A DNA stretch of 64,000 nt. Source: Rhizophagus irregularis. Lineage: Eukaryota. Below the pieces are notes generated by a model. That model was not told where the DNA came from. It saw only the letters and a list, made by a program, of their open reading frames with translations, and did no database searches. A program made the position numbers and the translations under genes. How positions within the stretch are numbered: position 1 is the stretch's first letter; every line of letters begins with the position of its first letter. Shown one piece after another: positions 1,454 to 59,058 of this stretch. The stretch covers positions 5,022,001 to 5,086,000 of the forward strand of contig NC_089430.1 of assembly GCF_026210795.1 (NCBI RefSeq), read 5' to 3'.

Positions 1454-1950
1454 CATGACAAATGGGTATAGCGATAAATCGCATATGCGATAAATCATAA
1501 TTTTCTTAAAATAATATGATTGATAAGCAATACACATAATTATGCATAAGTATTGTTCTTATATATCATTGACACTTTGACAGAACAGATATTTATAATA
1601 GTATTAGCTTATAACTTTATAAGCATAAGTATCTATGTATATAATAATGAACATATGTTTTAGCTTAAAAAGTTTCACCAATTTTCTTAATATTCGTGTT
1701 ATTTTAAAAAAATTCACGTATTTAAATTGAATATGATTGCAAATAATTTTTATAAAAAAATTCAGCCCACATCACACAAATCACTGATTGATCAGCAATA
1801 CATAATTATGCATAAATATTGTTCTTTCATTTATAAAGCATCGGGTGAAATTTTTTTTTCTTACTAAAAATTTTTTTTTAATTTCTTCCTTTTACATGTA
1901 TGAATTTTATTTGAAAAAAACTCTCAACAGATTCTTTTATCAAAAGTAAA

Positions 1951-16021: not shown

Positions 16022-16204
16022 AATGTCGGTAGATCTGATAAATCAATTCGAGTTAAAAACAAGGTTCAACAAGGTAATTTTTCAGTATAATACACTATAG
16101 ATACAATGTTGGAGAATTTTCCTCGAATTTAGTTTGTAATAGCGAAGAATAATTTGACATTTTGATTATTTATTATATATATATATGTGTTTTCATAAAC
16201 TAAT

Positions 16205-22660: not shown

Positions 22661-24716
22661 TTTAAATAATAATAATAAATGAATTCAGTTTGTTAGAATA
22701 ATTTTCGAAATTAAAAAAAAAAATTCAGAAAAAAACACAGAAAATAATTTCTGCCTCGATCATAACACAGGATAGTCCGATTAGTCCGTTGTACGCATTT
22801 CTTCAGGGCCGGAATTAAGATAATGTCAGTCAGTATATAGAAGGTAGAAGACAAGATCTACAAGATTATTTTGCCCTCATTCTGCGCAAACACGGATCCC
22901 CTACAAACACCGTGAATACAAAATGTAGACAGTACAAAATTTTTATTTATTTTCACTTCGCATAAAGGGAATTTTGCTTTTTGTTAAAGAAAATTTGGGA
23001 TTAAAATTTATAAAATGTACAGTACTATAAATTTTCTAACTTTGAATTTTAAAATTGTAAAAGAAGTTAAAGATATGTACTTCAATTTGATATTTTAAAA
23101 GGTAAATGACTACTGCTATACTAATTTGTATAAATTACCAAGAATTACTAGTAATTTAGTGAAATTGCTGGTCAACTATTAACGTAAAAAATTATACAAA
23201 ATTATGGGCTGCAATACGGGTCACCGGCGAATGAAATTCTTTGATTTTTAATCATTTTTGTTTTAATTAAAATTTTCAAATAAAAGAAAAAAAAACGATT
23301 ACTTATACTAAAATAGAAACAATAAAGATAATAAGATCAAATTTTACATGATATTATTATTCAAGCGTTACATACATTTATATAACTAAAAGAAATTTAC
23401 CTGACGTTACATATAAATTATTTGAATTGTGTAACATGAAAACTTGTGACATGACTGCGTCTGATTAATGAATTCTGCTCGGATATTTTTTTTCGCTAAA
23501 TGAGAATTATTTATTACCGGTTCTTACATTTTTTCCTGATTTTGGTTCTTTTTTTTTAACCCGTAATAAAAAATTTTTAAATTATTTTTTATTTATTTTG
23601 GTTTTATTCAATACCAAAAAAAAAATTTTTATAATCTCTTTTTCTCTTTTTATTTTTTTATATTTTTTTTTTGGTTCATAATTTTTTTTTAATTGATTTT
23701 TTTTATAAATTATTTAAAATTTCTTTTTGGAAATATGAAAAATTTGAATAAATGAAGTAATGGACTTTAATCTGATAAAAGTTTCAAAGAATTATGTAGT
23801 GATAAGAGTATAATCAAGATATCAAATTGAAGTTCATGAACTTGGGATCAACTGTCATTTTAAAAAAAATTCATTAAAAATATTTTTCTCTTTATACTAT
23901 GTTTGGTGATGGTAACAATTAATTTTAATTTTAATACAAATATTTGTTCATATTTATATATTGTATGAAAAAATTGTTAGGAATGATATTTTATAAAAAA
24001 AAGAACGAAGTTGGTATATTGCGATAAGAATTTCTTTTTAAAAAATTTAATGAGTTATTAGAATTATTCATAATACATTATTTGCAATTTAAATGTTAAT
24101 AATATAAATGAACAATAAAAGTAATAAAGGGCATGAAAAAATTACCAAGTATCTTTTTGTAAATAAGCATCATGCAAACCAGGTATATGTTGAAAGTAAC
24201 ACGATTTTTACTTAGATTATATTGTTTTCGATCAAGATCTTGATAAGCGAAATGTACTTATTAGTTCGAACATGTTACATGATATAATATATAAAGTTAA
24301 AATACGCATGAAAGCGCAAGGTCGAATTACTAATCTGCAGCAAACAGTTTATTAATATAAATTCACACAAAATAATAATTAGAATCCAAATCTAGGACTT
24401 TCAAATACATAAAACCATGCAATGTCAGCCAATGAAATTTTACGGTTCTCGTTACCTAGTATATGTTAAATTATATTCTATCAGTAATAAGACCAAAATA
24501 ATAAAATAAAATAAAAAAATTTAAAAAGTTACATAAAGGTAAATAATCTATTACAAATACCACAAAATAAGCTGAGTACAAAGGAGAGCAGTGCATGATT
24601 TAAGAATAATTAAGCCACTCTTTCTTATTACCACTTTAAGTTAATGCACATTGCACAAAATTGATTACTATTTGTAATTTTAAATATTGATATATACAGT
24701 CCACTCAACCAGTTGC

Positions 24717-26547: not shown

Positions 26548-29500
26548 TTAAATGTTTAGTCGAGAAATACCAATTTGCTGAGAAATATTAATTTGCTGAA
26601 AAATATCAATTTGCTGAGATAATGATGCTAATTAATAAATAAAGTTTCCATTAATAATTTTACAACTAATTTAAATACTCTTTAATAACCATTACCTGAA
26701 GATTCCATGCTAATTATATCATCGTTTTGATTATCATAATAATCGACAGAATTTTTTGGTTCAGGAAGATTATTAAAATTAAGCAATCTACTGGTATAAA
26801 TATCTTCTGAATGTGTTTTATGCGATAATCCTAAGTTGGTTGAAGGTGCACTACTGACCGCCAAATTCTTATTGATATTTTCTGCTTCTCTAGTTTGTTT
26901 TTGTATTTCTGTATAATTATCAGTTACATAATGATTTTTAAACATAGTAAATAATTCTTCAGACCATTGACTTAAGATTTTTTTGATTTCTTCTGCTTTT
27001 GGTCGACTTAACGGATTTGAATCTAAGCATCTTTTAATTAAACGGACAATTAATTGTGGTACTTTGATATTAAACCTTGGTCTAAGTCCTTTACAAATTC
27101 TTATTGCTAAATTATGATCATGATTTACATCATGATATGGAGGTAATTCAGAAATTACTTCATACATTATAATACCAAAACTATAAATATCTGAGGCTTT
27201 GGTATAATTTTGTCCTCGTAAAATTTCAGGAGCCATATAAGCCAAAACACCATATGTACTATTTTTTGTGTTTTCTGATGCATCATAGTCTGCAGGTTTA
27301 CATAATCCCATATCAGTTATACAAGTGAGATCTTTGAACCTTAGTATATTGCCAATATGTAAATCTCGATGAATTAATTCATTTTTATGAATACCTGCAA
27401 GCCCTCGTGCAATGCTATGTAAATAATTAATTTTATCATTAAGATATAATTTGGTATGATTTTTATTTAAATAATTTCGTAAATCTCCATCTTCTGCAAA
27501 ATCTAAAACCATAGCATAATTTTTTGTTTCTGGATCTTGAGTTATTCCATAAAGTTTAACAATACACCTACCCAAATTTACTTTACAATGTGATATAATC
27601 TAAAATAAAATGCATATATATTAGCAAAATTAAAATATCTACAAATTTTCAAATAATAAAATTTGTTACCTCATTCATAAACTCCAATGTAACATTTTTT
27701 GAATTATTCAAACTTTTTAAAGCCACCAACATATTTTGATTCTTTCTTCTCCAATTTTGATTTTCATCATCCCATTTATCTATACATCCATCAATCCAAT
27801 TAGCCTTATAAACTTTGCCAAATCCACCTTTTGCAATATATTTAATATCATAAAATCTATCATAAGGTACCCATTCCAATGCATGGCATGTATAATAACT
27901 ATGATTTGATAGCTGGATATCTTGAATAAATCCATCAATATCGCTATTACCACTTGTCCAATTATTGAAATTATGTTGAAAATATATTGCATTACACACT
28001 TTTTTACATTTTTCACATAAATCTCTTTGAACAAGCATATAATTTTGCGTTTCTGGATCTTGGGTTATTCCATAAATTTTAACAAATCCTATACTCTGCA
28101 ACTGAAATAAATAACATTGAATATATTAGTAATAATTAAATTTTATAAATTATACTAAATGAAAATAACTTTAGTACCTTATTCATTATAAATTTTGATT
28201 CAATAGATTTTGGATTAGTACTTAAATTATTTAAACTTACAAACATATTTTGGTGTTTTCTTTCCCAATTTTGACTTTCCTTATTCCATCGGTTTATATA
28301 TCCATCAATCCAACTTGCTCTATATACTTTATTACTATTTTTTGTAATACATTTATTAATATTATAAAATTTATTATAAGGTATCCATTCTAATACTTCT
28401 GATAATTGATAGGCTTTATGTAATGATAGTTGAGAATCTTGTATAAATACATCAATAATGTTATTGCCACTAGACCAATTTCCAAAATTTTGTTGAAAAC
28501 GTATTGCATTACATACATCATTACATATTTTACATGTTAAAACTACCATGTATTTTTCTGTTTCTGGATCTTGGGTTATTCCATAAACATTATAGGAACC
28601 TATAGTCTACAAATGAAATGGATGTACTAAATATAATAACAAAAATCAAAATATTTTATTAAATAATAGTACTAATTATACCTTATTTAATTTACTAACT
28701 TTTGAAATGTCTGAACTTTTCAAAATCATAGATATATTTTGGTCTTTTCTTTTCCAATTTTGATTTGTATAGTTCCCATAAACATTATATATAGAAACCT
28801 ATAATCTACAAATAAAATAGATGTATTGAATATAATAGCAAAAATCAAAATATTTGATAAATAATATTAATTATACCTTATTTAATTCACTAATTTTTGA
28901 AATATTTAAATTTTTCAAAATAATAGATATATTTTGGTCTTCTCTTATCCAATTTTGATTTACATAGTCCCATTTGTTTATATATCCATCAATCCAATTT
29001 GCTTTATATACTTTATTACTTTTTTTTGCAATACATTCAATATCATAAAATTTGTTATAAGGTATCCATTCTAATGCTCTTGATAATTGATGGGTTTTAT
29101 ATGATGATAGCTGAGAATCTTGAATAAATCCATCAATAATATTATTACTGCTAGTCCAATTTCCAAAATTTAGTTGAAAGTATATTGCATTACATACATC
29201 ATTACATTTTTTACATGTTAAAACCACCATGTAATTTTCTGTTTCTGAATCTTGAGTTATTCCATAAACTTTATAGCAACCTATAGTCTACAAATGAAAT
29301 AGATATATTTGAATATACCAACAATAATCAAAATATTTGAATAATAATATTAATTATACCTTATTTGTAAGTGTTAACTCACTAACTTTTGAAATATTTA
29401 AACTTTTCAAAATTACAACCATATTTTGATGTTTTCTTTTCCAATTTTGATTTTCATCATCCCATTCATTTACATATCCATCAATCCAACTTGTTTTATA

Positions 29501-30690
29501 TATTTTATCTTTTACAATACATTTAATATCATAAAATCTATCATGAGGGATCCATTCTAATGCATGGTATACGTAATAATTATGATCTAGTAATAGTTGA
29601 GTATCTTGAATAAATTTATCAACATAATTATTACCACTTGTCCAATTTTTGAAATTTCGTTGAAAATGTATTGCATTACATATATAATCACATTCTTCAC
29701 ATATATCTTTCTGAACCCTTATATAATTTTTTGTTTCTGGATTTTGAGTTATCCCTATTGTTAACTATAAGTATAATAAATTAATAAGAGGTATACTGTT
29801 TAAAAAATGATAAAATAACTTGCCTTGTTTACAAATTCTGATATATTATATTTTGGATCACTTAAATCTTTTAAAATTACAGACATATTTTGATCACTTC
29901 TTTGCCAATTTTGATTTTCTTTATTCCAATTATTTATGCATCCATCAATCCAATTTGCTCTATATACTTTATTATTATTTTTTACGATACATTCAATATC
30001 ATAAAATTTGTTATAAGGTATCCATTCTAATGCTTTTGATAATTGATAATTTTTATGTGATAATAGTTGAGAATTTTGAATAAATTCATCAATAATATTA
30101 TTACCACTAGTCCAATTTCCAAAATTTAGTTGAAAGTATATTGCATTACATATACTATTACATTGTTTACATGTTAAAACCACCATGTATTTTTCTGTTT
30201 CTGGATCTTGGGTTATTCCATAAACTTTATAGCAACCTATAGTCTACAAATAAAATTGATATGTTTGAATATATTAACAAAAATTAAAAATCTTATTAAA
30301 TAATATTAATTATACCTTATTTGTAAGTGTTAATTCACTAATATTTGAAATATTTAAACTTTTTATAATTACAACCATATTTTGATGTTTTCTTTCCCAA
30401 TTTTGATCTTTATCATCCCATTTATTTATGCATCCATCAATCCAATTTGCTTTATATACTTTGTCTTTTTCAATGCACTTAATATTATTAAATTTATCAT
30501 AAGGTATCCATTCTAACACTTTTTCCGCATCATCATTATGTTGAGTATTTTGGATAAATTTATCAATATCATTATTACCACTAGTCCAGTTTTTAAATTT
30601 TTGCTTAAACCGTTTTTCAAAACAAATTTTATTACATTTCATACATATCTCATCTGACTTGTTGAAGGCACCAATAATTTGAAAATCCAT
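26548..30690 (-). CDS. TKL-group protein kinase with 5 full and 1 collapsed degenerate N-lobe modules followed by a complete kinase
   Basis: Module exons at about 30690-30316, 30244-29824 (GC donor), 29764-29360, 29287-28877, 28798-28682 (39 aa) and 28606-28178. The intact N-lobe exon 28101-27670 has KGGFGKV/VALK. Kinase exon about 27599-26695 has HRDLHIGN, DMG and APE. The tail exon with QQIDI repeats ends in TAA at 26550-26548. Confidence 0.85.
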
Positions 30691-37751: not shown

Positions 37752-40413
37752 TTAATTGTTTTGGATAATTATTCCTTTAGATTTATTACTTTGATCTAAA
37801 AAAAAAGTAGAAGAAAAAGAAAATAGAAATTTAGATATATAAATATGAATAAAAAAGAAAATTATAAATATAAACTTAAAATTTACAATCTTCATTAATA
37901 TTCAATTGAAAAACATCAATTTGTAAAGATAAAGATGCTGTTTAATAGATAAAATTTTATTAGCCTTTTTATAATTAATTTATATTTTTCTTTTATCAAA
38001 CAATACCTGTAGATTCCATTTTAATCATATTATCATTTTGTTTATCATCATATTCGTCAGAATTTTTTTCTCCGGAAAATATATTATCAGTAATTTTCAA
38101 TTGAGAAATATCAATTTGTAAAGATTCTATTTAGAGTAAATTAAAACTTATTAATACTTTAATTAATTTGAATATTTTTTCGTAAAAAAAAGTATCGAAA
38201 ATTTATACCACTATTATTATTCTTTTCATAATAATCATCAGAAATTTTTTGTTCAGGAATATTATTATCTTCATTTTTCAATTTATGGAAATCAATCTGT
38301 AAGGATTCTATTTAATAATTTAACAAGTTATTAATAATTAATTTTATGTTGATTTAATACATTAAAATTAGTTGATACCTGAAGCTTTCATGCTTATTAT
38401 ATTATCATTTTGTTCATAATAATCGACAGAATTTTTTGGTTCAGGAAGATTACTATAACTAAGCAATCTACTAGTATAAATGGCACCTGAATGTGTTTCA
38501 TATGATAATCCCAGACTAGTTGAAGTTATAATACTAGTTGATAAACTATTATTAAATTCATCTGCTTCTTTAATTTGTTTGTATAATTCTGTATGAAAAT
38601 CCTGATGCGTTATAATTCTATGCCATTTGTACAAAATACTATCAATTTCTTTTGGTGTTGGACGATTTAATGGGTTTGCATCTAAACATCTTTTAATTAA
38701 ATGCACAATTAATTGTGGTACTTTAGTATTGAATCTTGGTCTAAGTCCTTGACAAATTTTCATTGCTAAACTTATGTCATGGTCTACATCATAATATGGG
38801 GCAATCCGGACATTAATTCATATATAATTATACCAAAACTATAAATATCTGCAGCTTTGGTATAATCTTTGTTTTGCAAAATTTCAGGAGCGATATAAGG
38901 TAAAACACCATATATACCATTTTTTGTATTTTCAGAATTTACAGGTTTACATAATCCCATGTCAGCAATCTTGGCGTAATTAGATACTAATAAATTACCA
39001 GGATGTAAATCTCGATGAATTAATTCATTTTTATGAATATGTTCAAGTCCAGATGCAAGGTATTTTAAATAACTGAACTTATAATTCCAACTTAATTCTT
39101 TGTAATTTTCATCTAAATAATTTCGTAAACTTCCATATTGTGCATAATCCAAGACCATCACATAATTTTTTGTTTCTGGTTCTTGAGTTATACCATAAAA
39201 TTTAATAATTTTATCACTGTCGACTATTTTATAATGCAACATAGCCTATGTAATAATAAAGTTAAAAAAATAAAAAATTAATTTTAATAAAACTTAAAAA
39301 AGTTTTCATTAGACAATGAATAAAATTATACCTCATTTATAAATTTACTATTAATATCTTTTGAATTATTTAAACTTTTCAGAGCCACAAATTTAAGTTG
39401 ACCATTCCTTTCCCAAATTCTATTATATATATCCCATTTGACAATATATCCATCAATCCATTTTGCTCTATATACTTTGCCAAATCCACCTTTTGCAATA
39501 TATTTAATATCACAAAATCTATCATAAGGTATCCATTCTAATGTTTTTGATATGTAAGAATGATCTGATAGCTGACTATCTTGAATAAATTTATCAATAT
39601 CATTATTACCACTGGTCCAACTATTAAAATATTGCTGAAAAATGATTGCCTTACATATTCTACATCTATTATCCATAACGGCCATATAGGTTTTTGTTTC
39701 CGGATCTTGAGTTATTCCATAATTTGCATGTAATGTTGTAATCTAAAAATATTAAATGTTGGTAAAATTTAAAATTTCATAATTCATTGAAAAATAATTT
39801 TATTGAGCTTTTTCAAGTTACTTGATACGTGATTATGATTATTGATTATTTATTATTATTACTAAAATGGAAATGATCTGCGAATGTGGCTAATCATATT
39901 TCTATATATCTCGTATTTATTAAATAATCAATAATCACAATAATCATCACACATCAGGTGATTCATAGGGGTAGCACAATTTTTGAAAAGCGCGATAATA
40001 TATCGTACCTGAGTCCTAAAATCTGATTCGATATTATTCGGATCATCAAAGGTTTTTAGAATTACAAGTAAATTTTGATTAATTCTTTTCCAATTATTTT
40101 TCTCATTATCCCAATAAATTATATTTCCATCAATCCAATTTGCTTTATACATTTTACCAAACCTACTTTCAACACTTTTAATATTATAAAGTCTATCATA
40201 AGGTATCCATTCTACTGCAGCTTTTGATACACCATAATGGTAATGGCCAAAGATATGTGTTGATAGCTGAGTACCTTGAATAAATTTATCAATATTATTA
40301 TTACCACTAGTCCAATTTTTGAAATTTTGTTGAAAATATTTTGCATTACATTTATGGTGACATTTTTCACATATATCATTCAAATTCATATTATGATAAT
40401 TCCAAGGTATCAT
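37752..40413 (-). pseudogene. TKL-group kinase with one degenerate N-lobe module and a 1-nt frameshift in the kinase C-lobe
   Basis: Exons about 40413-40009, 39742-39332 (KGGFGKV, VALK) and 39245-38378 (HRDLHPGN, DMG, APE). SGLP-PYYD is broken at about 38800, where a C run has 4 C and 5 are needed. ESLQID tail exons run to TAA at 37754-37752. The break could be a sequencing error. Confidence 0.8.
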
Positions 40414-40826
40414 TATTTTCTCAAAATAAAAACTTTAATAATAACGATTTTAAAGTTTGGTAACAAAAAATATTGAACTATGAATACGATAAATATATTT
40501 TTATATTACGAATTTAAATCAAGTTTGTAAAATAGAAGGGTTTAATTTCATATATTTTTATTTTCACATTTATATTTAATTACTTTAAATATTAAGTATT
40601 TTACTTGTACGACTCTACTAAATTTCGTACTTTCGTACGAATGATATTAATTAATATTGTAATAAATACAATGGCGAAGTACTGTTTTGTACGACCTGAA
40701 TAAATTATGTGGCTTTCGGCTAAAATTGAAACGATCCTTTTCCGTTATTTATACTTCATGATCGGCAAAATATGAAACAATTAATTAACCTTTTTGCTGA
40801 TTAACTTCAAATATCAATTTTTTTTT

Positions 40827-41067
40827 ACCAAACTAATAATTAGTCTAACGTCCTTTCTGGGCGAAAAATTTGGGGGTAGGGAATAATTTAAACAAACATG
40901 ATATTTAAATATATTATAAATTTCGGAATTTTTGGTAAAATCAAAAATATTCGGTACCACTCAATTTTAGAAAGAGAGAGGGTGCTAAAAACATATCGTG
41001 TGAACATACGCGCCCTTAAAATTCAAAAATGGGAGGACGTTAAGCTAAAAATTAATTTGGAACGACC
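40827..41067. mobile_element. Degenerate copy of the Harbinger/Tourist-like MITE at 45702-45980
   Basis: Shares CTAACGTCCTTTCTGG, ATAATTTAAACAAACATG, GGTAAAATC, GGAGGACGTTAA and the right end ATTAATTTGGAACGACC. The left TIR is eroded. Confidence 0.75.
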
Positions 41068-41720: not shown

Positions 41721-43210
41721 TACGAAATAAAAGTGTTGAACAATAAATTCGGAAGTATAAATTTTTTTAAAAAAGAAAAGTTAATATTTCATAATTATTT
41801 TGCTACTAAATTTCGTACATGTACTACTTTTAAAGCGTATGAAACTACAAATGATATTAATAATATGGTATTTACATCAAATTAATTGATGATTTAAATT
41901 AAAATAAGTCACCTATAAATCTAATTGATCATCGACTCTGAAATTTAACTTTCTAATTAAACAAGGTGATAAAGTATTTTATATTTGAATTTACATTAAA
42001 AATATTTAGTGCTCACCTAAAAGATGAACACACTATGTATACCATCAATAATCTAAAAATTTGTACATGAAAGGAAAATAAAAGTAGAAAATGCCTAGCA
42101 CATGATACTATTATTTATGTATAGCACATGTCCTTTTTCATACATATTTAGACATCTTTGTCAATGAACCCACCTTAAACCCACCTTACATAAAAAACAA
42201 ATCTGAAAAAATAAATAGTAAAAACGAAATAAAACTATAATAATTATCCTAAAATAAAATATAAACTAACAAACATTAAGTAAACAAAACAAAATTGAAG
42301 ACTTAGAAAGTAAACCCTTCATTATTATATATCAAATTCCAATTTCATATTAACAATGACAACAGAAAAATTTCAAAATACAATCATATGTTTTTTTGAA
42401 GTTTCATTTTACTTTGATCAAATCCAAAAACATCTTTTTGATAAAATTGAAAGATTACTATATTTTAAAATATCATTTCCACCTTCTAAACATACATAAT
42501 CGCTTAATCATATGATTATTTGCTTTATTATAGTAATTAGGCAAAATCAATTTATTATAACTTACAACTTAATAAATAAATATAAATTTATCAATATATT
42601 TATACTTTAAAACTCACTAACTGTATCTAAATTGCCCTAGTTGGTTTTAACAAAAAAAAAGTGACATTTAAAATTATTCGAAGTATATATTACGTATTAA
42701 GAAATTTTTCTTCATGATTTTGCTGTGGCAACAATGAGGCTTGATGATTGACATACATTTCAGACATATGTGCAAAATTTGTTTGTTATACATACAATGC
42801 TTGTACTATGATCACTTTTGTACACAATGCATTTTGCATAAATAAAGGCGTTTAATAAAAAAAAGAAAAAAAAAGTTATTTACATTATCTTTTCCAATCA
42901 GAAAGAATTTCAATATAATTATATAGTAATGGCTCTTATTAGTAATGATAAAGGTAATAATCATATATAATATAAACTAATATTTTTAAACAAATTTACT
43001 ATATAATAAAACTAGTTTCTGGTAATATTGAATTTGAAGGAAACGGTTCTAAGGAATTCAAAGAAAGTGGCTTTGAAGAATTTGAAAAAAGTAGTACCAA
43101 GGAATCTAAAGGTATATTATACATACTAAATATTAAATTTTTATTTGTAATACATTTAAATACTATTTATAATTATACCTTACTATATAATATACAAAAT
43201 ACAAATATAG

Positions 43211-45577
43211 CTTGTAAGTTAATAGGTTATCTTATAATTGAATAATAATGGAATTACTTATCATTTTTATTATATTTCTAGTGATTAATAATACTATAGC
43301 CAGTAAGTTATTAGTTATTTAAATTTTTAATTCTTTATTTATTTTACATAATATTTAAATAATTAAATTGAGCAAATTCTTTATTTAATTAACCATTTAA
43401 TACTAATTAATTGTATTACAGATGGTAAGTTACAATATCATATTTATTTGTTTAATATTCAACTAATTATATTCTTAATTTAATAATTTAAATAACTAGA
43501 TTGTAAGCAACATATTTAATTTGCAGTAAATACTTTATATTATATTTATATTTAACTAATAATTAATTAATAATATTAGGGTGTAAGTAGACCCTATATA
43601 GGGGTCAGGTGATGAAAAAAGTTTGCTGTACGCATTTTTTCAGGGCCGGAATTATGATAATGTCAGTCGGTTACTATAATAGGAAATAAAATTCTGACTG
43701 GCATTATCAAAAATTATCTAAAAAGGAAAGATTTTCATAATTTCAAAATACGCAAACTCAAACCTGACCCTTTTATATATATTTCTGGGTCCTGTGTAAG
43801 TTATTGATATCTATATTTCTATTATTTAAACTCACTAAATTCTTTATTTTGTAATTTTTCTTTTAGTTAGTAAGTTATAAGTTATTTATTTAATTCTATT
43901 ATTACTTATTGTTATAATATTTACATATAAACCAAACTAACTAAATTCTTTATTTAAAATATTATTTAATAATTAGGGAGTAAGTTATTTATTTAATTCT
44001 ATGTTTACTTATTGTTATAATATTTACATATAATTTAAATTAACTAAATTCTTTATTTTAAAAAATTATTTAATAATATAGGGAGTAAGTTATATATTTA
44101 ATTCTATTATTATCTAATATTTACGTATAATTTAAACTAACTTTAAAAAAATTATTTTGTAATTTCTTTCAGTTAGTAAGTTATGAGTTATTTATTTAAT
44201 TCTATTATTACTTATTGTTATAATATTTACATAATTTAAACTAAGTTCTTTACTTAAAAAATTATTTAATAATATAGAGTGTAAGTTATTATTTATTCAA
44301 TTCTATTATTACTTATTGTTATAAACTTATAATATTTACATATAGTTTAAAACTACTAACTAAATTCTTTATTTAAATAGATCGTAAGTTATAGGTTATT
44401 TATTTAATTCTATTATTACTTATTGTTATAATAACTAAATTCTTTATTTTTGTAATTTCTTTTAGTTAGTAAGTTATAAGTTATTTATTTAATCTATTAC
44501 TACTCTCTGTTATAATAACTAAATTCTTTATTTAAATTATTTTGTAATTTCTTTTAGTTGGTAAGTTATAAGTTATTTATTTATTTCTATTATTACTTAT
44601 TGGTATAATATTTACATATAATTTAAACTAAATAGGAAGTAAGTTATTTATTTAATTCTATTATTAATTATTGTTATAATATTTACATACAATTTAAACT
44701 AACTTCTTTATTTAAATAGATTGTAAGTCATAAATTATTTATTTGATTCTATTATTACTTATTGTTATAATATTTATATATAATTTAAACTAACTAAATT
44801 CTTTATTTAATAATATAGTGTGTAAGTTATTTATTTAATTCTATTGTTACTTATTGTTATAATATTTGCATATAATTTAACTAAATTATTTATTTAAAAA
44901 TTATTTAATAATATAGGGAGTAAGCATCTTATTATTACTTATTGTTAGTATAATATTAACATATAATTTAAACTAACTAAATTCATTATCTAAAAAATTA
45001 TTTAATAATATAGGGAGTAAGTTATTTATTTAATTCTAATATTGTTATATTATTTACATATAATCTAAACTAACTAAATTCTTTATTTAAAAAATTATTT
45101 AATAATATAGGGAGTGAGTTATTTATTTAATTCTATTATTATTTATTGTTATAATAACTAAATTCTTTATTTAAAAATTATTTTGTAATTTCTTTAGTTG
45201 GTAAGTTATAAGTTATTTATTTAATTCTATTATTACTTATTGTTATAATATTTACATATAATTTAAACTAACTAAATTACTTATTTAAATAGATCGTAAG
45301 TTATAATTTATTTATTTAATTCTATCATTAGTTACTTATTGTTATAATATTTAAACTAACTAAATTTTTATTTATAAAAATTATTTATTAATATAGCTTG
45401 TAAATTATTTGTTATTTCTATTGTTATATATTTTATAAATATTTATTTGTTAATTGAATTCTTTCATATAAAATTTCTGTTACTTTAGTTGGTAAGTTAT
45501 GAAAGATAGGTTGTTATTATATATATTTATACAAAACTAAGACATATATTATATTAAATTTCTATTTAAATTTTAGA
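43211..45577 (+). other. Array of 23 three-nucleotide micro-exons plus one 1-nt exon; the intron units form a roughly 95-bp degenerate tandem repeat
   Basis: AG|NNN|GT at 43211 CTT, 43300 CCA, 43422 ATG, 43500 ATT, 43580 GGT, 43867 TTA, 43977 GGA, 44082 GGA, 44173 TTA, 44278 AGT, 44381 ATC, 44466 TTA, 44558 TTG, 44636 GAA, 44720 ATT, 44819 TGT, 44917 GGA, 45014 GGA, 45111 GGA, 45198 TTG, 45293 ATC, 45397 CTT and 45489 TTG. AG|A|GT at 45577. Donors are mostly GTAAGT. Confidence 0.8.
43589..43793. mobile_element. MITE (205 bp) inserted just after the donor of micro-exon 5
   Basis: Ends AGACCC.../...GGGTCCT flanked by duplicated GTGTAAGT (43581-43588, 43794-43801). Core CAGGGCCGGAAT is shared with 53334-53530 and about 22790-22835. 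Confidence 0.75.
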
Positions 45578-45701
45578 GTAATTGTTGATTTTGATCTTAC
45601 ATTTCAGTGTAATTTTTAATATGAATTTCAATGATAAATTTAATTATTTAAATTTATATATAGATTTGGAAAAAGCGGAAATACAATTATGGATAATTTT
45701 A

Positions 45702-45980
45702 GGCCGTTCCAAATTAATAATTAGTTTAACGTCCTTTCTGGCCAAAAATTTTGAGGGGGGGGGAGGGGATAATTTAAACAAACATGAAAATTAAACATAA
45801 TAAAAATTTCGGAAATTTTTGGTAAAATCGGGAATTCTCGGTACTATTAAATTTTAGTAAAGGAGGGGGTGGTTTAAGCATATTTAAACATATCAAACAT
45901 ATATGTTTAAATCACCCTTGAATTTTTCAAAAATAGAGGGGGGGGGAGGACGTTAAACTAAAGATTAAATTGGAACGGCC
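45702..45980. mobile_element. PIF/Harbinger (Tourist-like) MITE, 279 bp, inside a kinase exon
   Basis: TIR GGCCGTTCCAAATTAAT / ATTAAATTGGAACGGCC. TTA TSD (45699-45701, 45981-45983). Excision restores ...MDNF-ILEKNLKWIPY. Confidence 0.92.
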
Positions 45981-48900
45981 TTATTTTGGAAAAAAATTTA
46001 AAATGGATTCCTTATGATAAATTTAAAAATGTTAAGTATCTTGATAAAGGAGGATTTGGTACTATATATAAAGCTATTTGGTTTTATAATGATAATAATG
46101 AAGTAATTCTTAAATGTCACAATAATTTAAGTAAAAATTTAAATGAATTTTTAAATGAAGTATGATAATATATTATTTATTTTTTTATTTTGAATTATAA
46201 TTTATTTATACTAATATATTATTATGTTTTATAGTGGGAATATCATAAAACTTGTTTAAATTCATATAATATTATTTATTTTTATGGATTTACAAAAAAT
46301 CCAGATACTTTGAAATATATGGTAGTAATGGATTATGCAAACAAAGGTAATTTAAGAGGAAACTTAACAAGAATTGTCAAAAGTGATTGGTATCAAAAAT
46401 TATATATGTTATTTGGAATTATTTCTGGGCTTAATTGTATACATAAACAAGATCTTATTCATTGTGATTTTCATGATGGAAATATTTTAAACCATAATGA
46501 AAGTAAAATTTATATTAGTGATTTAGGATTATGTAAACCTTTAAAATCATTTTTGAAAAAATATGATATTTATGGTGTTATACCATTTATGGCACCAGAA
46601 GTTTTAAGAGGCAATCCTTATACTACAGCTAGTGATATATATAGTTTTTCTATTATTATGTGGGAATTTACATCCGGGGTACCACCATTTAATAATAGAG
46701 CACATGATTTTCAACTTAGTTTAAGTATTTGTGAAGGTGAACGCCCTGAAATTATTGAAAATACTCCACAATGTTATGTAGATTTGATGAAAAAGTGTTG
46801 GGATGAAAACCCATTAAAAAGACCATCTTCTAAAGTATTATTGAAGAGTGGGTTTTTCTTTCAAATAAAGTGAAAGTTGAAGATATTAATGAAGAATTAA
46901 AATACAATATTATGGAATTTATAAATGCACCAATTGGGCAAAGCTATAATCTTACTACTGAATCTCATCCACAGGCATATTATAAAAGTCGCTTTCTTGA
47001 TTTTACTAGTAAACAATTAAATGAAATTCTTGAAAGTAGAGATTTACAAGCTTATTATTCAAGTCAAACTACTAGTGGAAAAGTGAATGAAATTCTTGAA
47101 AGTGAAGATTCACAAACTAGTGTAAAAGTGAATGAAATGAGTAAAAATTTGGATGATTGTATATTTAATTTGAAGTCATTAGGTATGTAATAGTATATAA
47201 AAAGAATTAATTTTGCAAATTATTTATGTGAAATTAATTTTATTTATTTAATTATTTAGATATTAAAACAGATAAAAAATAACTAGTAATTATTTGTGTT
47301 TTTATAAGAATTTATAGTTTTTTACTTAACAAAATTGTTATATTTATTTAAACACTAAGGCTAGAGTATCAGTAAAATATTTTACAATATTCTTAGTTTG
47401 TAATTTAAATAATTCCTTTTTTTATATTTAATTCATATATGTATTCTCTTTTTTTAGAATTATTTAAACACCAAAGCTAGAATAGTAAATATTTTACAAA
47501 TTTCTTAGTTTGTAATTTAAATAAATCTTTTTTTTTAACTTTCCAATTATTAAATATAAATTATCAAAATAATAATATAAGTATATAAACCCATTTCCAA
47601 TGTATAAAATCAAAATAAATAATGTAAAATTTTTTATATTAATTACAATGGCTGATTGTATTTTATTTATATTGTTAACTTTTATTCTTAATAATATTAT
47701 TTGCAATCTGCAAAAATATTCTTTACCTTTTTAAAAAATTATTTTATTAAGACAACATTATACATAACTATACATAAGTATTTTAACTTTATATTAAGTA
47801 CTGGCTAATAGTCAAATTGTAAAGTATTTTTTAGAACTTTTTTGTTTACAGTATCTGTAAATTATTTTTACGAATTTATTATGAGTTTTTTTTACAGATC
47901 ATATTAACATTTCCTAATAAAGATGCATATGGAAAATATCCAACATGTCTAAGTGACAAAAAAGCAATTGATTTTACATTTGCCTATTCAATTCAGAAGG
48001 TTATCTTTGTCTCATAATCTAATTTTAAATAAATTTTCTTAATAATCTTAACACCTTCTAATCAATTTAATATGTAAAAGATATTTGCACAAAATATGGT
48101 TTTTTAATTATGCTATAAAAAATTTTTATTACTAGTTGATCATAATATTCATATATACAAGTTGTTTGGAATAATATCTATAAAAGTAATCAAAGCAATA
48201 AATATTAAAGAACACCTAATAAAATTTACATCCCGATTTCAGCGTATAATGTTGATATTCCAATGAAAATCATAATTGAATAAAATAAATGAAGAATAAA
48301 GTATATATTATTATTCATGGAAAAACTTCATTATGTTGTATATGGGGCGAATTTATCCTTTACAGTTAATTTTATTGATCTTTAGATGCAGATTAGCTTA
48401 GTGCTGTAGTATATTGGTAATGACAAATATAGTAATTTATATCATAATCTCAACTTTGCTTGAAATTTCTACTTTTTTGATAGGTGGTTGAGTTATATGC
48501 CTATTTCTTTTAAATTTATTAGCACGCGAAAAGAGGGATTGAAGATTTACATTTGATTGGGATTTGGGATGAATTATTAGGAAAATCATCCAATAAATCA
48601 AACATTATGTAGTTATATTTGACTTCATAAAGACCCCCAAAAAATTATTTAATTTGATTTCGTAATTGCAAAAATATCTGTTAAGCATTTTGTTAATTAA
48701 AATCAGCAGAAAATTATGTAATTCTTCTCTTCCATTATCCTGAAAGAAAAGAAGAGAGAGAAAAAGAATTATTGATTTTTCCATTGCAAAAAAAAATTCA
48801 TTGGTTTTCAATCACATAGCTTTAGGATTTGAGGCGGATTCAGAAAATCAAATTAAAATGGGTTTTTTGTCATACAAGCAACGCAGGAATTTCATTTAAT

Positions 48901-49531
48901 TTTTGGGTTACTAATTCTATAAAGGAAATCATTTCCTATAATGTTCCTATAATGAGATTTGTAGACTGCCTTACTATCAAAATGATCTTATCGTTAATTC
49001 TCGTAACTTAATAAAAAATAAACATCAACAAATTCGATAATATAGGCCGTTCTCAAGCGCCTTCCTCAATGGGTTAATCATTGACTAAAAAGGCAAAGTG
49101 TGAAGATCATTTAAGTCAAAAAAACCTGGAGCTATAAACCATCTTTTTTTTCATAAAGCTACCAAAAATAGAAAATAATGGAATATAAAAAGAGGTTGCT
49201 CATGCGCCTTACTTCCTTCACTTTCCATTTTACACTATGGATCTTCAGCACTGACAAAAATCAATAATTATATTACTTTTTATATTAGAAGCTATTACAA
49301 AAAATAAAAATATACAAATGCAAAGATCCGATCATTTTTTAACTGTCCTTACCACAACAAATATAATTTTATCAACTGTTTGTTTTCCATCCAGTATAAG
49401 ATTGCAATGTCAGCCAAGACCTAAAACTAAAGGGTTATACTGGTGAAGCAGGCTAGTAGACATTTATTATTATTTATTTATTTTATTTTTATTTATTTTA
49501 ATAATTAATTTATTATTATATACTATCATAG

Positions 49532-49995
49532 GAAGTGTACATGATGCCAAAGTGTTTTATCGTTCTTCACTTTATCATGAAATTTTGTTGCATCCCGAAC
49601 AATGGGTTCCAGGTAGTTCTTACATTATTGCAGATGCAGCATATCCTCTCCGAACATATTTAATGAAAGCATTTCCTAATTATTATATGCTAAGTTCTTT
49701 CTTCAATGCAAATGGTTATTGAGTGGGCATTTGGACATTTAAAGGAACGATGGAGAATTTATTGAAAGAAATTTATTGTACAAATATAGAATGGATTGTT
49801 AAAATAATACATGCATGCTGTATTTTACATAATATTTGTATTGATATGGGAGATTTATTATCTTCAGAAAATGTTAATAGAGAAATGGATGATGATATAA
49901 ATGGTAATAATGAGTATGAAGCAGAAAATGAAGAAATGGAGGAGATGGCGGGTACTCAGAAGAGAGAATATTTAACAGATCTTATAATTAATTAA
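49532..49995 (+). pseudogene. Harbinger DDE transposase (HARBI1-like), C-terminal fragment with frameshifts
   Basis: GSVHDAKVF...YIIADAAYPLRTYLMKAFP...IEWAFGHLKERWR...IIHACCILHNICI, followed by an acidic tail. Confidence 0.85.
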
Positions 49996-50074
49996 TCATT
50001 ATTAAACCTTACAAAGCTTCATTAATTACAATAAAATTATTTGCATATATATTATTAACTGCTCATAATTAAAA

Positions 50075-51180
50075 TTTCGTTAGAAACATTTTAAATAGTT
50101 CCATTTGTTCATTGTGCTGCTTTTGTTGAACTTCAGAAGCATGAATATATTGTTCTTTCATAATTTCAGCAATAGTATCAGTCTGTTCTTTAATAAGAGT
50201 TCGAATCTCTTCTATATTTGTTTTTTTTTCTTAGAACATGCTTTTTTTTGTTGTCTAGAGTCATTCTATATGATATGAATAATGATTTGATTAGATGTTA
50301 AAAAAAAAATAAAAAATAAATATTAAAACGTCACTGACCTCTTTGACTTGTTCTTCAGCATTCTCTTGTTCTTTACGCTTAATCCCATAAATTGAGTCAC
50401 TTGTAATTGGTGCAACTATACTCAGATCTTTTCTTAAAAAGCTATCCGTGTCCTTAAAAAACTCCCAGTCATTTTGGATAGCTTCGCCACCAGTGCTTTC
50501 AATTTTATCCTTTATTTCACGGAATTTTTGGAGAAGTGCATCCCACTTCTGTTAAACTGATGTCTTTGTACGTTCTTTTAAAGCTGGACTTGCCATATCT
50601 GACTTTTGGATGTTAGTAATAATTTTATCCCAGATTCGGCCCTTTTCTCTTGGATCTTTGACTTGTTGCAATGCTTGCCATTGCATTCTTACTTCTTCAA
50701 TAAGCATTTGAGTTTCTGATGTTGTCCATCTGTTTGTTGATTTAGGTGTATTGAAGTTAATAAATGTAGAAGTTGATTGGATAGGACTTTGATTATTTAT
50801 GGCTACAGAATTAAAAGGTGATTGATTTTCTTGATTATGAGTTACATGATGAGTAATAAGAGAAGGTTGAGAAGGTTGCAAGGTTATCTATAAAAAGAAT
50901 TTCAAGTTTATTATATTTCATATTGTATAATAATAAAAGAATAAATATTTACCAGATATCTTGTTGTATCATTTAAAGGGTCCATATATACTGGATATCT
51001 TACTTCATTTGGCGTCAAAGGATCTATATATTTATTGTTTCATTTTCAGCAAAAGGTCGTGTAGTGGAATTTTGATGTTGTTGTAAGGATAAATTATTCG
51101 TTAGGCTGTTAAAAGGAGAGAAATGAGTGGTTGGAACGAAATTTTTAAAAGTTGTTTTAGTTCTCTTTTTTGGATGCGTA
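50075..51180 (-). pseudogene. Harbinger-associated Myb/SANT (trihelix)-like DNA-binding protein with a premature stop
   Basis: RWTTSETQMLIEEV...RIWDKI...RTKTSV*QKWDALLQKFREIK...WEFF. In-frame TAA at 50554-50552. The apparent start codon reads ACG. Confidence 0.8.
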
Positions 51181-54442: not shown

Positions 54443-57400
54443 TTAAGATTTTGAGTCATGGTCTTCAATATTAATTTGTATAGATCCTATGTAATAGAAT
54501 AAATTTGTTAGTAATTTTTTATATGTTTTGAATGTCTTTTATAAGTGACAAATTAATTATACCTGAGTATTCTGAATAATCATCGCTTGTTATACTATCA
54601 CTATTTTTCAATTGAGAAATATCAATTTGTAAGGATTCTATTCATAGAGTTAAATTTTATTAATACATTCTTTTCAAAATTAACTTAAATAATTACTTAT
54701 TTTCTATATTTTCTATTAAACAATACCTGTAAATTCCATGCTAACTATATCATCATTTTGTTCGTAATAGTCATCTGAATTTTTTGGTTCGGGAAGATTA
54801 CTATTACAATTAAGCAATCCACTTGTATAGATAGCTTCTGAACGTGTATTACATGATAATCCTAAACTGGTTGACTTAATTGATAAATTTTTATTTGTTC
54901 CTTCTGATTCTTCAATTTGTTTTTGTAATTCTGTAATTTGATAATCACTTCGTTTATCATGCCATTCACGTATAATTTTATAGATTTCATTTGCTGTTGG
55001 TCGATTTAATGGATTTGCATCCAAACATCTTTTAATTAAATGCACAATCAATTGAGGAACTTTAATGTTAAACCTTGGCCTAAGTCCTTTACAAATCCTT
55101 ATTGCTAAATTATTGTGGTTCATGTCATGATATGGAGGTAATCCAGAAATTACTTCATACATAATTATACCAAAACTGTAAATATCAGCAGCTTTGGTAC
55201 AATTTTGTCCTCGTAATATTTCAGGAGCCATATAAGGTAAAATACCATATGCACTCTCTTTTGAATTCTCTGATGCATTGTAATCTGCAGATTTACATAA
55301 TCCCATATCGGTTATATAAATACGTGTATTGTTATCATAAAGAATGTTGCCAACATGCAAGTCTCGGTGAATTAAATTATTTTTATGAAGAAGATTAAGT
55401 GCGTATGCGATAATCCATAAACAATTAAGCCTATCATACCAATTTAATTTATCATGACTTGTGTTTAAAAAATCTCGTAAACTTCCATTTTCTACATAAT
55501 TCAATACCATCATATAATTTTTTGTTATCGGATCTTGAGTTATTCCATAAAATTTAATAACAGCATGTAGAAGATCATTCACTTTATAATGCCAAGTGAT
55601 CTATAATTAAATAAATATAAATGAAATGCATTGAATTTGTAAAATTTTTTTAAATATAAATTAATCATACCTCGTTCATAAATTCTAATGTAACATTTTT
55701 TGAATTATCTAAACTTTTCAAAGCTACAAATTTATTTTGATCTTGTCTACTCCATTTACATTTTTCATAATCCCAATGCTGCATATATCCATCATACCAA
55801 TTTGCTCTATAAATTTTGCCAAAACCTCCTTTTGCAATATATTTAATATTATAAAATCTATTATAAGGTATCCATTCTAATGCTTTTGATACTTCATAGT
55901 CAGAATGTATTGATAACTGAATATTTTGAATAAATTTATCAATATCATCATTACTACTAGTCCAATTTACAAAGTTTTGATGAAAATGCATTGCAAGGCA
56001 TGTACAGTTGCATTTTTTACATATACTACTTAAAACTAACATATAATTCTTGGTTTCTGGATCTTGGGTTATCCCATAAACTCTATCATGTATCGTAATC
56101 TACAAATGCAATAATTCACTAAATATTGATATTTTCCAATAATATGGTAATAATAATTTACCTTACCTTATTCTTAAATTCTGATGTGATATCATTTGGA
56201 TTGTCTAAAGTTTTCAGGCTTACAAACATATTTTGACCTCCCCTTTTCCAATTATCATCCCAACTTACTATATATCCATCGATCCAATTGGCTTGATATA
56301 TTTTGCTATTCTCATCCTCTGCAAGATATTCAACATTACAAAGCTTATCATAATGTATCCATTCTAATACCTTTGATAATTGGTCAGAATGTGCAGATAG
56401 CTGAGTGTGTTGTATATGAATATTAATATTATCATTACCACTAGTCCAATTTTCAAAATTTCGTTGAAAATGCATTGCAAAACATATACAATTACATTTT
56501 TCACATATTTCATTACAAACAAACATATAATTCTTGGTTTCTGGATCTTGAGTTATTCCATAGAATGTTTGGTATATCATTACCTTACAATGATAAATTG
56601 TTAAAATATATTTTTCAAAAATATTATTATATAACAAATTAACATACCTTATTCGCAAATTCTGATGCAATATTATTTGGATTATTTAACATTTTCAGAA
56701 TTATAAACATGTTTTCACCTTTTCTTCCTATTTTGTGATCTTCACTATCCCAATAACTTATATATCCATCAATCCAATTAGCTAGATATACTTTGCCAAA
56801 CTCATCATCTGTAAAATATTTAATACCACAAAATCTATCATAAGGTATCCATTCTAATGCTTTTGATACTTTATAGTCAGAATGTATTGATAGCTGAGTA
56901 TCTTGAATAAATTTATCAATATTATTATTACCACTAGTCCAACTTTCAAAATTATGATGAAAATGTGTTGCAAGGCATGAACTGTTGCATTTTTCACATA
57001 TTTCATTACAAACTACCATATAAATTTTTGCTTCTGGATCTTGAGTTATTCCATAAACCTTATGATTAATTGCAATCTATAAATAAAATGCATTAATGAA
57101 ACTGATATTTTAAATTTTTTATCAATTAAATAAACTTAATATACCTCATTTATAGTAAATTCTGGTGTAATATCATTTAGATTATCTAAATTTTTCAGAA
57201 CCACAAACATATTTTGTCCTTTTCTTTCCCAATTATTAAAATCCCAATGCAATATATATCCATCAATCCAATTTGCTCCATACATATTTCCAAAATTGCT
57301 ACTTGCAATATATTTAATATCATTAAGTCTATCATATGGTATCCATTCTAATGCCTTGTAATCATAACAATTTGATAGCTGAGTATCTTGTATAAATTTA

Positions 57401-58450
57401 TCAATATGATTATTACCACTAGTCCAATTTTCAAAATTATGCCGAAAATGTATGGTGTTACATACATGACTACATTTTTTACATGCTAAAACTACCATGT
57501 AATTTTTTGTTTCCAGATCTAGAGTTATTCCATAAAATTTATGATGCATCGTAATCTACAATATATATAAATGTTAAAAATTAAATTTTTTTTATAGTTT
57601 CATTGATAATAAGTTACATTACCTTATCCACAAATTCTGATGTAATAGCATCTGGATTATTTAAACTTTTCAGAATTACAAACATGTTATTATTATATCT
57701 TTTACAATTGCTATTATCCCAATATGATATATATCCATCAGTCCAATTGGCTAGATACACTTTGCCAAGCTCATCTTCCATAAAATATTTAATATCATAA
57801 AATCTATCATAAGGTATCCATTCTAGTGCCTTCTTTACGATATAAACAGTATGATCTGATAACTGAGTATTTTGAATAAATTTGTCAATATTATTATTAC
57901 CACTAGTCCAATTTTCAAAATTTCGTTGAAAATGTATTGCAAAACATATACTGTTGCATTTACTACATTTTTCATTACAAACAACCATATAATTCTTTGT
58001 TTCTGGATCTTGAGTTATTCCATAAACTTTATGGAGTACTGTAATCTACAAATATAATTAACAAAATAAATACATTAATAAAATCTAATTATTACAAATT
58101 TAGTAAGTTTATTTCACCTCTTTTAATTCTAGTGCAATATTATTTGGGCTATTTAACCTTTTTAGAATCACGAACATATTTTGATCTTTTCTTCTCCAAC
58201 TCAAATTTTTATCATCCCATTTATCGATAGGTCCTTCATTCCAATTCGTTCTACTGAACTTGTCTTTTATAATATAAAATCTATCATAAGGTATCCATTC
58301 TAATGCTTTTGATACTTCATAGTCAGAATGTATTGATAGCTGAGTATCTTGAATAAATTTATCAATATCATTATTACCACTAGTCCAATTTTTAAAATTT
58401 TGTTGAAAATATTTTGCGTTACACACACATTTACATTTGTTGCATTCCAT
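54443..58450 (-). CDS. TKL-group protein kinase with 5 degenerate N-lobe modules followed by a complete kinase
   Basis: Module ORFs/exons at 58109-58450, 57614-57988, 57136-57549, 56639-57019 and 56158-56670. Intact N-lobe at 55665-56042 (KGGFGKI, VALK, EFMNE). Kinase 54716-55582 has HRDLHVGN, DMG and APE. Tail exons ESLQIDISQL and GSIQINIEDHDSKS end in TAA at 54445-54443. Confidence 0.87.
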
Positions 58451-59058
58451 ATTTAATTCTTTATTGGTATCAATAGTACGTAATGAATTATTTGACAGTC
58501 AAGGCTTGTTTAAATTATAATGAATTCAAGTTAGTAGAAAACGAAATTTAAAAAAAAAATTTACAAAGAACTTGCCACATAAGTTATAAGTGTAATTTTG
58601 CGATTACATCATAATTTCGTCATATTTTGCTGATATTCCTGTATAAGTTAACATCAATCATGAATCGGTGTCGATCGACATTTATTTAAAAATCAAGTTT
58701 ATAGTGTTGGTATTTTATTATATGATATTTCAAAATGCTAAAATAATATGATTTTATATGAAAAAATATTTGTTACATTACATAATTGTATCAAAAATTC
58801 TTTTTTTTTTATGGAATTATTGAAGTTTATATAATTAAGTAATCTTAAATTTTTTAAATTTTCCAAATGACTATTATCTAATTCATATTTTGGGTCACTA
58901 AGTTTTTTGATTACACTAAAATTACATTTATTTGAGTATTTATTAATACCTTATAGAAAATTTCTTAAATATACACGGGTGATTCGAAAACATATCACGT
59001 GACCTTATAACAAAATTAATAAATATTGTAACTGATCAGCGTAAAAAATACCTATTTT

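What the first reader, a model, noticed from the sequence alone, without database searches (positions are those of the whole stretch)
43861..45500. Intron+triplet unit expands by tandem duplication: a possible codon-by-codon diversity generator
Seen: from about 43860 the introns are near-copies (GTAAGTTATTTATTTAATTCTATTATTACTTATTGTTATAATATTTACATATAATTTAAACTAACTAAATTCTTTATTT...). Their 3' ends fall into three classes that track triplet identity: ..TGTAATTTCTTTTAG before TTA/TTG, ..TTTAATAATATAG before GGA/AGT/TGT/CTT, and ..AAATAG before ATC/ATT/GAA. The order repeats (GGA GGA TTA..ATC, then GGA GGA GGA TTG ATC), giving WFRRI...LWRRI in the protein. Inference: every unit is frame-neutral, so unequal crossing-over or exon skipping adds or removes one residue. 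Because the exons are phase 1, each change also rewrites the junction codon. This could make a hypervariable basic/aromatic sensor or targeting peptide on the kinase. A few skips (T+AG, T+GA) would create stops.
Basis: partly seen in the sequence, partly recalled or inferred. Interest (0 to 1): 0.8.

Follow-up and report, generated by a model that had tools for sequence, protein, structure and literature searches.

The report
One-codon exon array before fungal kinase
A kinase gene of a root-symbiotic (mycorrhizal) fungus carries 23 three-base units in a row between near-identical intron-like spacers, a layout shared by related kinase genes, which likely spells a variable peptide one residue per exon, although this particular copy is probably broken by a transposon.

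Summary
Observation confirmed. Window 43211-45491 holds 23 three-base units, each between AG and GT, in the 5' part of a Rhizophagus PF07714 kinase gene (phase 1). Triplets vary more than their flanks (13/51 vs 33/340, P=0.004) while splice sites do not, so this is not a neutral satellite. Related arrays occur in 15 metagenome loci, four of which run in phase 1 into a similar kinase-front exon. Over 112 joins they make 0 stops in that frame versus 4.8 expected (P=0.002), which indicates translation. The travelling unit is exon-centred (3' intron end, triplet, next 5' end), implying exchange inside intron bodies. A predicted 1-nt exon (45577) restores the frame to the kinase. This copy has a MITE in a coding exon and a frameshift, so it is probably a pseudogene. 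Splicing of the triplets, isoform diversity and variation between isolates were not shown. The basic, amphipathic character is not shared by relatives. Codon-sized exon arrays are known from Tuber nank NLR genes, and this scan noted others on other DNA (HET genes). My searches found no report in mycorrhizal kinases. Verdict: new variant of a known kind.

The parts
42929..42953 (+). Exon 1 (ATG, 25 nt, ends in phase 1)
   Evidence: N-terminus identical to R. irregularis model P0187
43016..43111 (+). Exon 2 (96 nt, acidic 8-residue repeats, ends in phase 1)
   Evidence: homologous N-termini
43211..45491 (+). Array of 23 predicted 3-nt exons starting at 43211, 43300, 43422, 43500, 43580, 43867, 43977, 44082, 44173, 44278, 44381, 44466, 44558, 44636, 44720, 44819, 44917, 45014, 45111, 45198, 45293, 45397, 45489
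43796..45396 (+). Near-copy core (end of intron 7 to intron 23), built from exon-centred cassettes of three to four types
43589..43793 (.). About 205-nt insertion in intron 7 with imperfect terminal inverted repeats and an 8-bp target duplication (43581-43588 / 43794-43801) that copies the donor site; MITE-like
45577..45577 (+). Predicted 1-nt exon between introns of 85 nt (45492-45576) and 86 nt (45578-45663); it moves phase 1 to phase 2 and opens the frame into the kinase
   Evidence: the same context in 8 of 191 homolog models; inferred, not seen in RNA
45664..46159 (+). Coding exon (FGKSGN motif, Gly-rich loop, catalytic Lys region) interrupted by a MITE
45701..45981 (.). 281-nt MITE with 35-bp terminal inverted repeats inside the coding exon; stops in all three frames; one weak acceptor before 45964 would keep the frame
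   Evidence: a form lacking it is joined in all four runs laid
46160..46234 (+). 75-nt GT..AG intron; the joined form is seen in three RNA-like runs (family members at 80% likeness or more)
46235..47190 (+). Kinase domain exon (PF07714, E 2e-34) and C-terminal tail, with a frameshift just after the kinase domain (two overlapping ORFs, 46235-46873 and 46834-47190)

Best explanation
The stretch is a run of 23 three-base units, each between an AG and a GT, in the 5' part of a Rhizophagus protein-kinase gene; they are likely spliced as one-codon-sized exons into a variable peptide in front of the kinase, and the array likely grows and reshuffles by unequal exchange inside the near-identical intron bodies. 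Because the exons are phase 1, each residue is written by the last base of one exon and the first two of the next, so adding, losing or swapping a cassette keeps the frame but changes the junction residue. Selection removes orders that create stops (shown statistically in relatives). A predicted 1-nt exon links the array to the kinase in this subfamily. The architecture is family-wide in Glomeromycota-like kinases. This copy is probably a recent pseudogene (MITE in a coding exon, frameshift after the kinase domain). Shown: anatomy, splice-site conservation, stop avoidance, cassette linkage. Inferred: splicing, exchange mechanism, 1-nt exon, pseudogene status. The peptide most likely acts as a variable interaction or localisation segment (untested).
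For: Splice sites: 0 changes at 64 GT/AG positions of introns 8-23 against 7.2% departure from consensus in the bodies (P about 0.008; partly circular because units were called by these sites). With an anchor that ignores GT and AG, 99 of 106 anchors in related loci have both. Intron lengths take 14 values among 16 while exons stay 3 nt. Within cassette classes triplets differ at 13/51 positions and flanks at 33/340 (P=0.004). Branch-like CTAAY in 13 of 26 introns against 3.8 expected. Translation: 15 related loci give 0 stops in 112 phase-1 joins against 4.8 shuffled (P=0.002), while phase 2 has 21. After dropping two loci that share first units with L043 and two doubtful units, and collapsing identical neighbours: 0 of 96, P=0.0014. 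Phase 1 fits the 3' junction in 4 loci and the 5' junction in 4 loci. L004, L012 and L041 carry the same kinase family. Cassette linkage: 3' class and the next intron's 5' class are linked across the exon (P=0.00015) and independent within an intron (MI 0). A tree of exon-centred cassettes has a 100/99 split that follows triplet type; the whole-intron tree has 0 of 13 supported branches. The tail of public model P0145 is reproduced exactly by window exons 5, 7, 8, 9, 10 plus read-through of intron 10.
Against: No transcript or protein with the triplets fully joined was seen: three protein searches aimed at the N-terminus returned none, and no such joint was among the rows shown (349 joints and 1808 loose ends were not displayed). 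In the window alone the open frame is no evidence (P=0.51 under shuffling). The distance-based test of cross-exon linkage is weak (Mantel rho 0.18, P=0.06). Related loci are partial contigs of unnamed organisms, were picked by a pattern that requires intact sites, and are not fully independent. Some units in them have dead donors (L094, L101, L036). Amphipathicity is significant only here (P=0.003 for an 18-residue window, 0.13 for 11) and in 0 of 4 relatives. Homolog models are mostly automated and mutually inconsistent in this region.
Confidence: 0.72

Rival explanations
1. Splicing-level generator, as in Tuber nank genes: the main source of diversity is alternative skipping of the 3-nt exons within one nucleus, giving many peptide isoforms per gene. 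It is compatible with the best explanation.
For: All exons are symmetrical; no single skip creates a stop (0 of 23) and only 7 of 253 longer joins do. Precedent in Tuber (passages).
Against: Skip-safety is not beyond chance here (P=0.26). No isoform data were obtained. Donors are mostly the strong consensus, which is also what constitutive splicing of short introns would give (inference).
Confidence: 0.35
2. Real exons but a tolerated linker: the cassette multiplies by drift in a recombination-prone kinase family, and selection only keeps splice sites and an open frame; the peptide has no recognition role.
For: Peptide charge and amphipathicity differ between loci. Neighbouring kinase genes in the window carry other tandemly repeated N-terminal modules. 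This copy has decayed.
Against: Triplets diverge faster than their flanks even within a cassette class (P=0.004), which drift alone does not predict. The one array with its host gene identified elsewhere (L017) is a NACHT-ankyrin gene.
Confidence: 0.3
3. Most units are not used: exon 2 is spliced to a late acceptor and the array is a duplicated intron interior that merely keeps splice-like ends.
For: Most public models skip the array; no fully joined product was found.
Against: Stop avoidance specific to phase 1 over 96-112 adjacent joins requires that neighbours be read together; unused sites would decay.
Confidence: 0.08
4. Neutral satellite that matches splice consensus by descent from one intron.
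For: The region is a tandem repeat of about 90-100 nt. 43 of 110 loci caught by the same pattern are plain TAAG repeats, and several others have one invariant triplet, so the pattern alone is not proof.
Against: In those satellites the 'triplet' is constant. Here it is the most variable part while GT/AG are invariant, and stops are avoided in the frame set by the flanking exons.
Confidence: 0.03

Closest known systems
Codon-sized microexon arrays of Tuber melanosporum nank (NACHT-ankyrin) genes (Iotti et al. 2012, PMID 22289772; paper not held, known only from passages of PMC4986451, PMC3689799, PMC13449251)
   Same: Tens of consecutive codon-sized exons in an expanded gene family of a mycorrhizal fungus. 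L017, found here, is a NACHT-ankyrin gene followed by more than 30 such exons.
   Different: The host is a PF07714 kinase in Glomeromycota, not an NLR in an ascomycete, and the array lies N-terminal of the catalytic domain. Exons are phase 1 and followed by a predicted 1-nt exon. Alternative splicing is reported for Tuber but not shown here. The phase and intron similarity of the Tuber arrays are unknown to me.
Schistosoma micro-exon genes (MEGs) (passages of review PMC4015677)
   Same: Runs of small symmetrical exons whose skipping keeps the frame.
   Different: MEG micro-exons make up to 75% of the coding sequence of small, mostly signal-peptide-bearing proteins, with exon-skipping variants sequenced. 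Here 69 nt precede a kinase.
Single-nucleotide exons (Fusarium CYP621A, PMC12940212, abstract read; Arabidopsis, PMC4674806, search listing only)
   Same: A 1-nt internal exon needed for phase compatibility.
   Different: The Fusarium exon was confirmed by RNA reads; the one at 45577 is inferred from frame and from homolog models.
Expanded Rhizophagus PF07714 (tyrosine-kinase-like) kinase family
   Same: 80-87% identity to many R. irregularis kinases over the kinase exon; same N-terminal exons.
   Different: Public models mostly miss or misread the array; this copy has two coding lesions.

Membership tests
Tuber nank-type codon-sized microexon array | Tens of consecutive 3-nt exons with canonical splice sites | tested here: met
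   23 units, all AG-NNN-GT; by sequence and selection signature, not by RNA
Tuber nank-type codon-sized microexon array | Host gene is a NACHT-ankyrin NLR | tested here: not met
   Host is a PF07714/PF00069 kinase
Tuber nank-type codon-sized microexon array | Extensive alternative splicing of the mini-exons in transcripts | tested here: inconclusive
   No joint across the triplets among the rows shown; the output was truncated and contigs are fragmented
Tuber nank-type codon-sized microexon array | Shared by an expanded paralogous family | tested here: met
   8 of 191 homolog models read through the first 3-nt exon into the same intron; related arrays in 15 loci, three with the kinase on the contig
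Glomeromycota PF07714 kinases | PK_Tyr_Ser-Thr domain and close Rhizophagus homologues | tested here: met
   E 2e-34; up to 87% identity
Glomeromycota PF07714 kinases | Intact reading frame | tested here: not met
   MITE with stops in all frames at 45701-45981 and a frameshift after the domain; one weak cryptic acceptor could bypass the MITE
Schistosome MEG | Symmetrical micro-exons | tested here: met
   All 23 are 3 nt
Schistosome MEG | Micro-exons form most of the coding sequence | tested here: not met
   69 nt in front of a kinase gene of more than 1,200 coding nt
Schistosome MEG | Signal peptide, secreted | not tested
   No predictor was run; the N-terminus is acidic and polar by inspection
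Neutral satellite | Even divergence along the unit | tested here: not met
   Triplets 13/51 vs flanks 33/340; GT/AG 0/64

The most novel reading that the evidence does not exclude
A large part of the expanded kinase family of arbuscular mycorrhizal fungi carries an unannotated N-terminal recognition peptide written across exon junctions, one residue per 3-nt exon. It is diversified both by cassette exchange between and within arrays and by exon skipping, closed by a 1-nt exon in the Rhizophagus subfamily, and serves non-self or partner recognition in an asexual multinucleate fungus. This would be a convergent counterpart of the truffle NLR system, built on kinases.
Probability: 0.27. Interest if true: 0.82.

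Novelty: new variant of a known kind. Interest (0 to 1): 0.56.

Why it matters
The huge kinase repertoire of arbuscular mycorrhizal fungi is unexplained (own knowledge), and public models truncate or misread these N-termini. If the arrays are spliced, the proteins have a hidden variable segment that can be read out directly by cDNA sequencing and compared across isolates and nuclei. That makes 'what do these kinases recognise, and how do they diversify without sex' testable. It also extends codon-sized exon arrays from an ascomycete NLR family to a different phylum and protein class, and offers a further candidate 1-nt exon. The value lies in the family, not in this damaged copy.

Tried and rejected
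No whole genome is held, so no genome-wide count was possible. An exact search for the intron consensus in metagenome contigs found 0. Sequencing-run search: no RNA holder listed, which is no evidence either way. In one search, X18-X20 behaved like RNA (kinase intron joined) and X5 like DNA; depth figures were not used because they cannot rank parts, and the absence of a triplet-spanning joint among the shown rows is uninformative. A focused read-level look at the last exons was not obtained, so splicing of the triplets and of the 1-nt exon stays open. Protein searches for a fully spliced N-terminus found none among 10, 66 and 71 hits. A period-11 block duplication was considered (it would preserve helical register) but the lag analysis shows no clear peak. 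An amphipathic or basic helix as a family property was rejected (0 of 4 relatives). The acceptor scan used a wrong frame and was redone. Of 110 pattern loci, 43 are TAAG simple repeats and 44 are short or low-diversity; only 23 are runs of five or more diverse triplets. The 15 AT-rich loci used for the stop test were chosen by eye for intron likeness; the other 95 were left out of that count. Literature searches without a report of such arrays in Rhizophagus or Glomeromycota: (top 30 of 196 listed). The library lacks most subscription papers, Iotti 2012 was not held, and no supplements of Rhizophagus genome papers were examined; any of these could mention the arrays.

Full report
Setting. The window is AT-rich fungal DNA with several PF07714 kinase genes. 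The kinase downstream of the finding is 80-87% identical to Rhizophagus irregularis proteins, and its first two exons match the N-terminus of public R. irregularis model P0187 letter for letter. No whole genome was available.

Anatomy. On the + strand the gene starts at 42929. Exon 1 (25 nt) and exon 2 (96 nt) both end in phase 1. Then 23 three-base units follow between 43211 and 45491, each with AG before and GT after, separated by spacers of 75-119 nt (one of 284 nt). A two-unit pattern occurs 7 times in the window, all here, against 0.00 in shuffles. Introns 8-23 are near-copies (mean 76% vs 60% shuffled), and the outer introns are more diverged. A branch-like CTAAY lies 7-50 nt before the acceptor in 13 of 26 introns, with 3.8 expected.

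Link to the kinase. The next recognisable exon (45664, FGKSGN) needs phase 2. The 172 nt after the last triplet contain an AG, one base and a GT at 45575-45579, which splits them into introns of 85 and 86 nt and restores the frame. Among 191 homolog models, 8 read the end of the first of these introns plus that base into FG, and 8 read the end of the second, so both contexts are conserved in the family. The first 8 could also come from paralogues that lack the second intron. A DNA-like contig in run X5 spans 45479-45683. The 1-nt exon is inferred. Such exons are confirmed in Fusarium (abstract of PMC12940212) and reported in Arabidopsis (listing of PMC4674806).

State of this copy. A 281-nt element with 35-bp inverted ends sits inside the exon at 45701-45981 and has stops in all three frames; only one weak acceptor near its end would keep the frame. 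A joined form without it appears in all four runs laid, including the DNA-like one, at 80% likeness, so from alleles or paralogues. The frame also shifts just after the kinase domain. A second insertion of about 205 nt lies in intron 7 with an 8-bp duplication that copies the donor. The copy is probably a pseudogene; assembly error for the frameshift was not excluded.

Not a neutral satellite. Intron bodies depart 7.2% from consensus and take 14 lengths among 16, yet all 64 GT/AG positions are unchanged (P about 0.008, partly circular) and every exon is 3 nt. Within cassette classes the triplets differ at 13 of 51 positions and the flanks at 33 of 340 (P=0.004). True satellites caught by the same pattern show the opposite, a constant 'triplet'. 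The window's open frame alone proves nothing (P=0.51).

Evidence from relatives. A pattern scan of metagenome contigs (stopped after 7 of 64 parts) gave 110 loci. Of these, 43 are TAAG repeats, 44 are short or low-diversity and 23 are longer diverse runs. Fifteen AT-rich loci, chosen by eye, have introns resembling the window's. L004, L012 and L041 carry the same kinase family at 50-55% identity to P0012, L004 with a Pfam kinase hit. Phase 1 fits the 3' junction in L004, L012, L041 and L075 (no 1-nt exon needed there) and the 5' junction in L043, L013, L088 and L007. Over 112 adjacent joins there are 0 stops in phase 1 against 4.8 in shuffles (P=0.002), while phase 2 has 21 against 20.7. A stricter set of 13 loci gives 0 of 96, P=0.0014. 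No triplet is itself a stop codon, so phase 0 is also open and is excluded only by the flanking exons. With an anchor that ignores GT and AG, 99 of 106 anchors have both; a few units have dead donors, which would drop one residue in frame. Triplet order differs in every locus. The tail of model P0145 from another isolate is reproduced exactly by window exons 5, 7, 8, 9, 10 and read-through of intron 10, so those units are shared rather than hypervariable between these two copies.

How it changes. The 5' ends fall in two classes that track the preceding triplet (P=0.002). The 3' class and the next 5' class are linked across the exon (P=0.00015) and independent within one intron (MI 0) (classes defined post hoc). 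A distance-based version is weaker (P=0.06 across, 0.92 within). Whole introns give an unresolved tree, whereas exon-centred cassettes give one strong split that follows triplet type. The inference is that exchange points lie in the shared intron body and the travelling unit is 3' end, triplet, next 5' end. No single skip creates a stop (0 of 23), 7 of 253 longer joins do, and skip-safety is not beyond chance (P=0.26).

What the peptide may do. The window's peptide has a high helical hydrophobic moment (0.75, P=0.003 for 18 residues; P=0.13 for 11), partly because a motif recurs. Four related arrays show none and range from +2 to -5 in charge. In relatives the array sits directly before the WTS-type motif that other kinases in this window carry after Cys-rich modules, so it may replace that module (inference). 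A variable interaction or localisation segment is my best guess; a tolerated linker is a serious rival.

What is not shown. No read or protein with the triplets joined was seen. Isoform diversity and variation in unit number between isolates or nuclei remain untested.

Comparison. [quoted passage not shown] L017 is such a gene: NACHT and ankyrin hits followed by more than 30 triplet units. Schistosome MEGs share symmetrical micro-exons but are mostly made of them (passages of PMC4015677). The window's gene works like the Tuber arrays in layout but is not a nank gene. My searches found no report for Rhizophagus; the library is incomplete. Earlier notes of this scan describe one-codon arrays on other DNA, mostly at HET genes, and none look-alike to this stretch or naming mycorrhizal kinases; I did not verify them.

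Verdict. A real and unusual gene structure: a new variant of a known kind (new phylum and protein class, phase-1 junction coding, exon-centred cassette exchange, candidate 1-nt exon), seen here in a probably broken copy and without transcript proof. Interest 0.56.

Noticed in passing
window 1915-7316 (+), 26682-30690 (-), 38368-40434 (-), 54716-58498 (-): Four other kinase genes, each preceded by several tandem copies (up to about eight, often ~490 nt apart) of a Cys-rich 'WTSGN...WIP' module; three of the kinase ORFs have PF07714 hits and one. A second mode of N-terminal expansion in the same family.
   Followed up: partly
window 43016-43111: Exon 2 is made of acidic 8-residue repeats whose number differs among homolog models (P0126, P0145, P0012): another frame-neutral length variable next to the array.
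   Followed up: no
window 40828-41067 and 22790-22834: A diverged copy (74%) of the exon MITE and a 45-nt match to the intron-7 insertion.
   Followed up: partly
window 13633-16042 (-): Gene with a Crinkler N-terminal domain (PF20147, E 1e-19) followed by ORFs without Pfam hits.
   Followed up: no
window 49447-50887: Weak DDE_Tnp_4 hit on + facing an unassigned ORF pair on -; may be a decayed Harbinger-like element (recalled layout, untested).
   Followed up: no
L017:3040-7911: NACHT-ankyrin gene followed by more than 30 three-base units between 74-80-nt near-identical GC-rich introns: a nank-like array in an unnamed organism.
   Followed up: partly
L042:16-2570; L044 and L063; L107:144-2620; L033; L050; L058: Independent long arrays of diverse 3-nt units (34 or more in L042 and L044) with unrelated intron sequences; host genes not identified.
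   Followed up: partly
L002:940-1425: Ankyrin-like gene (by inspection) with several 3-nt units between very short introns of 35-44 nt.
   Followed up: no
L101, L094, L036: Array units with mutated donors, and in L101 one apparent zero-length unit, between intact neighbours: frame-neutral loss of single residues.
   Followed up: partly
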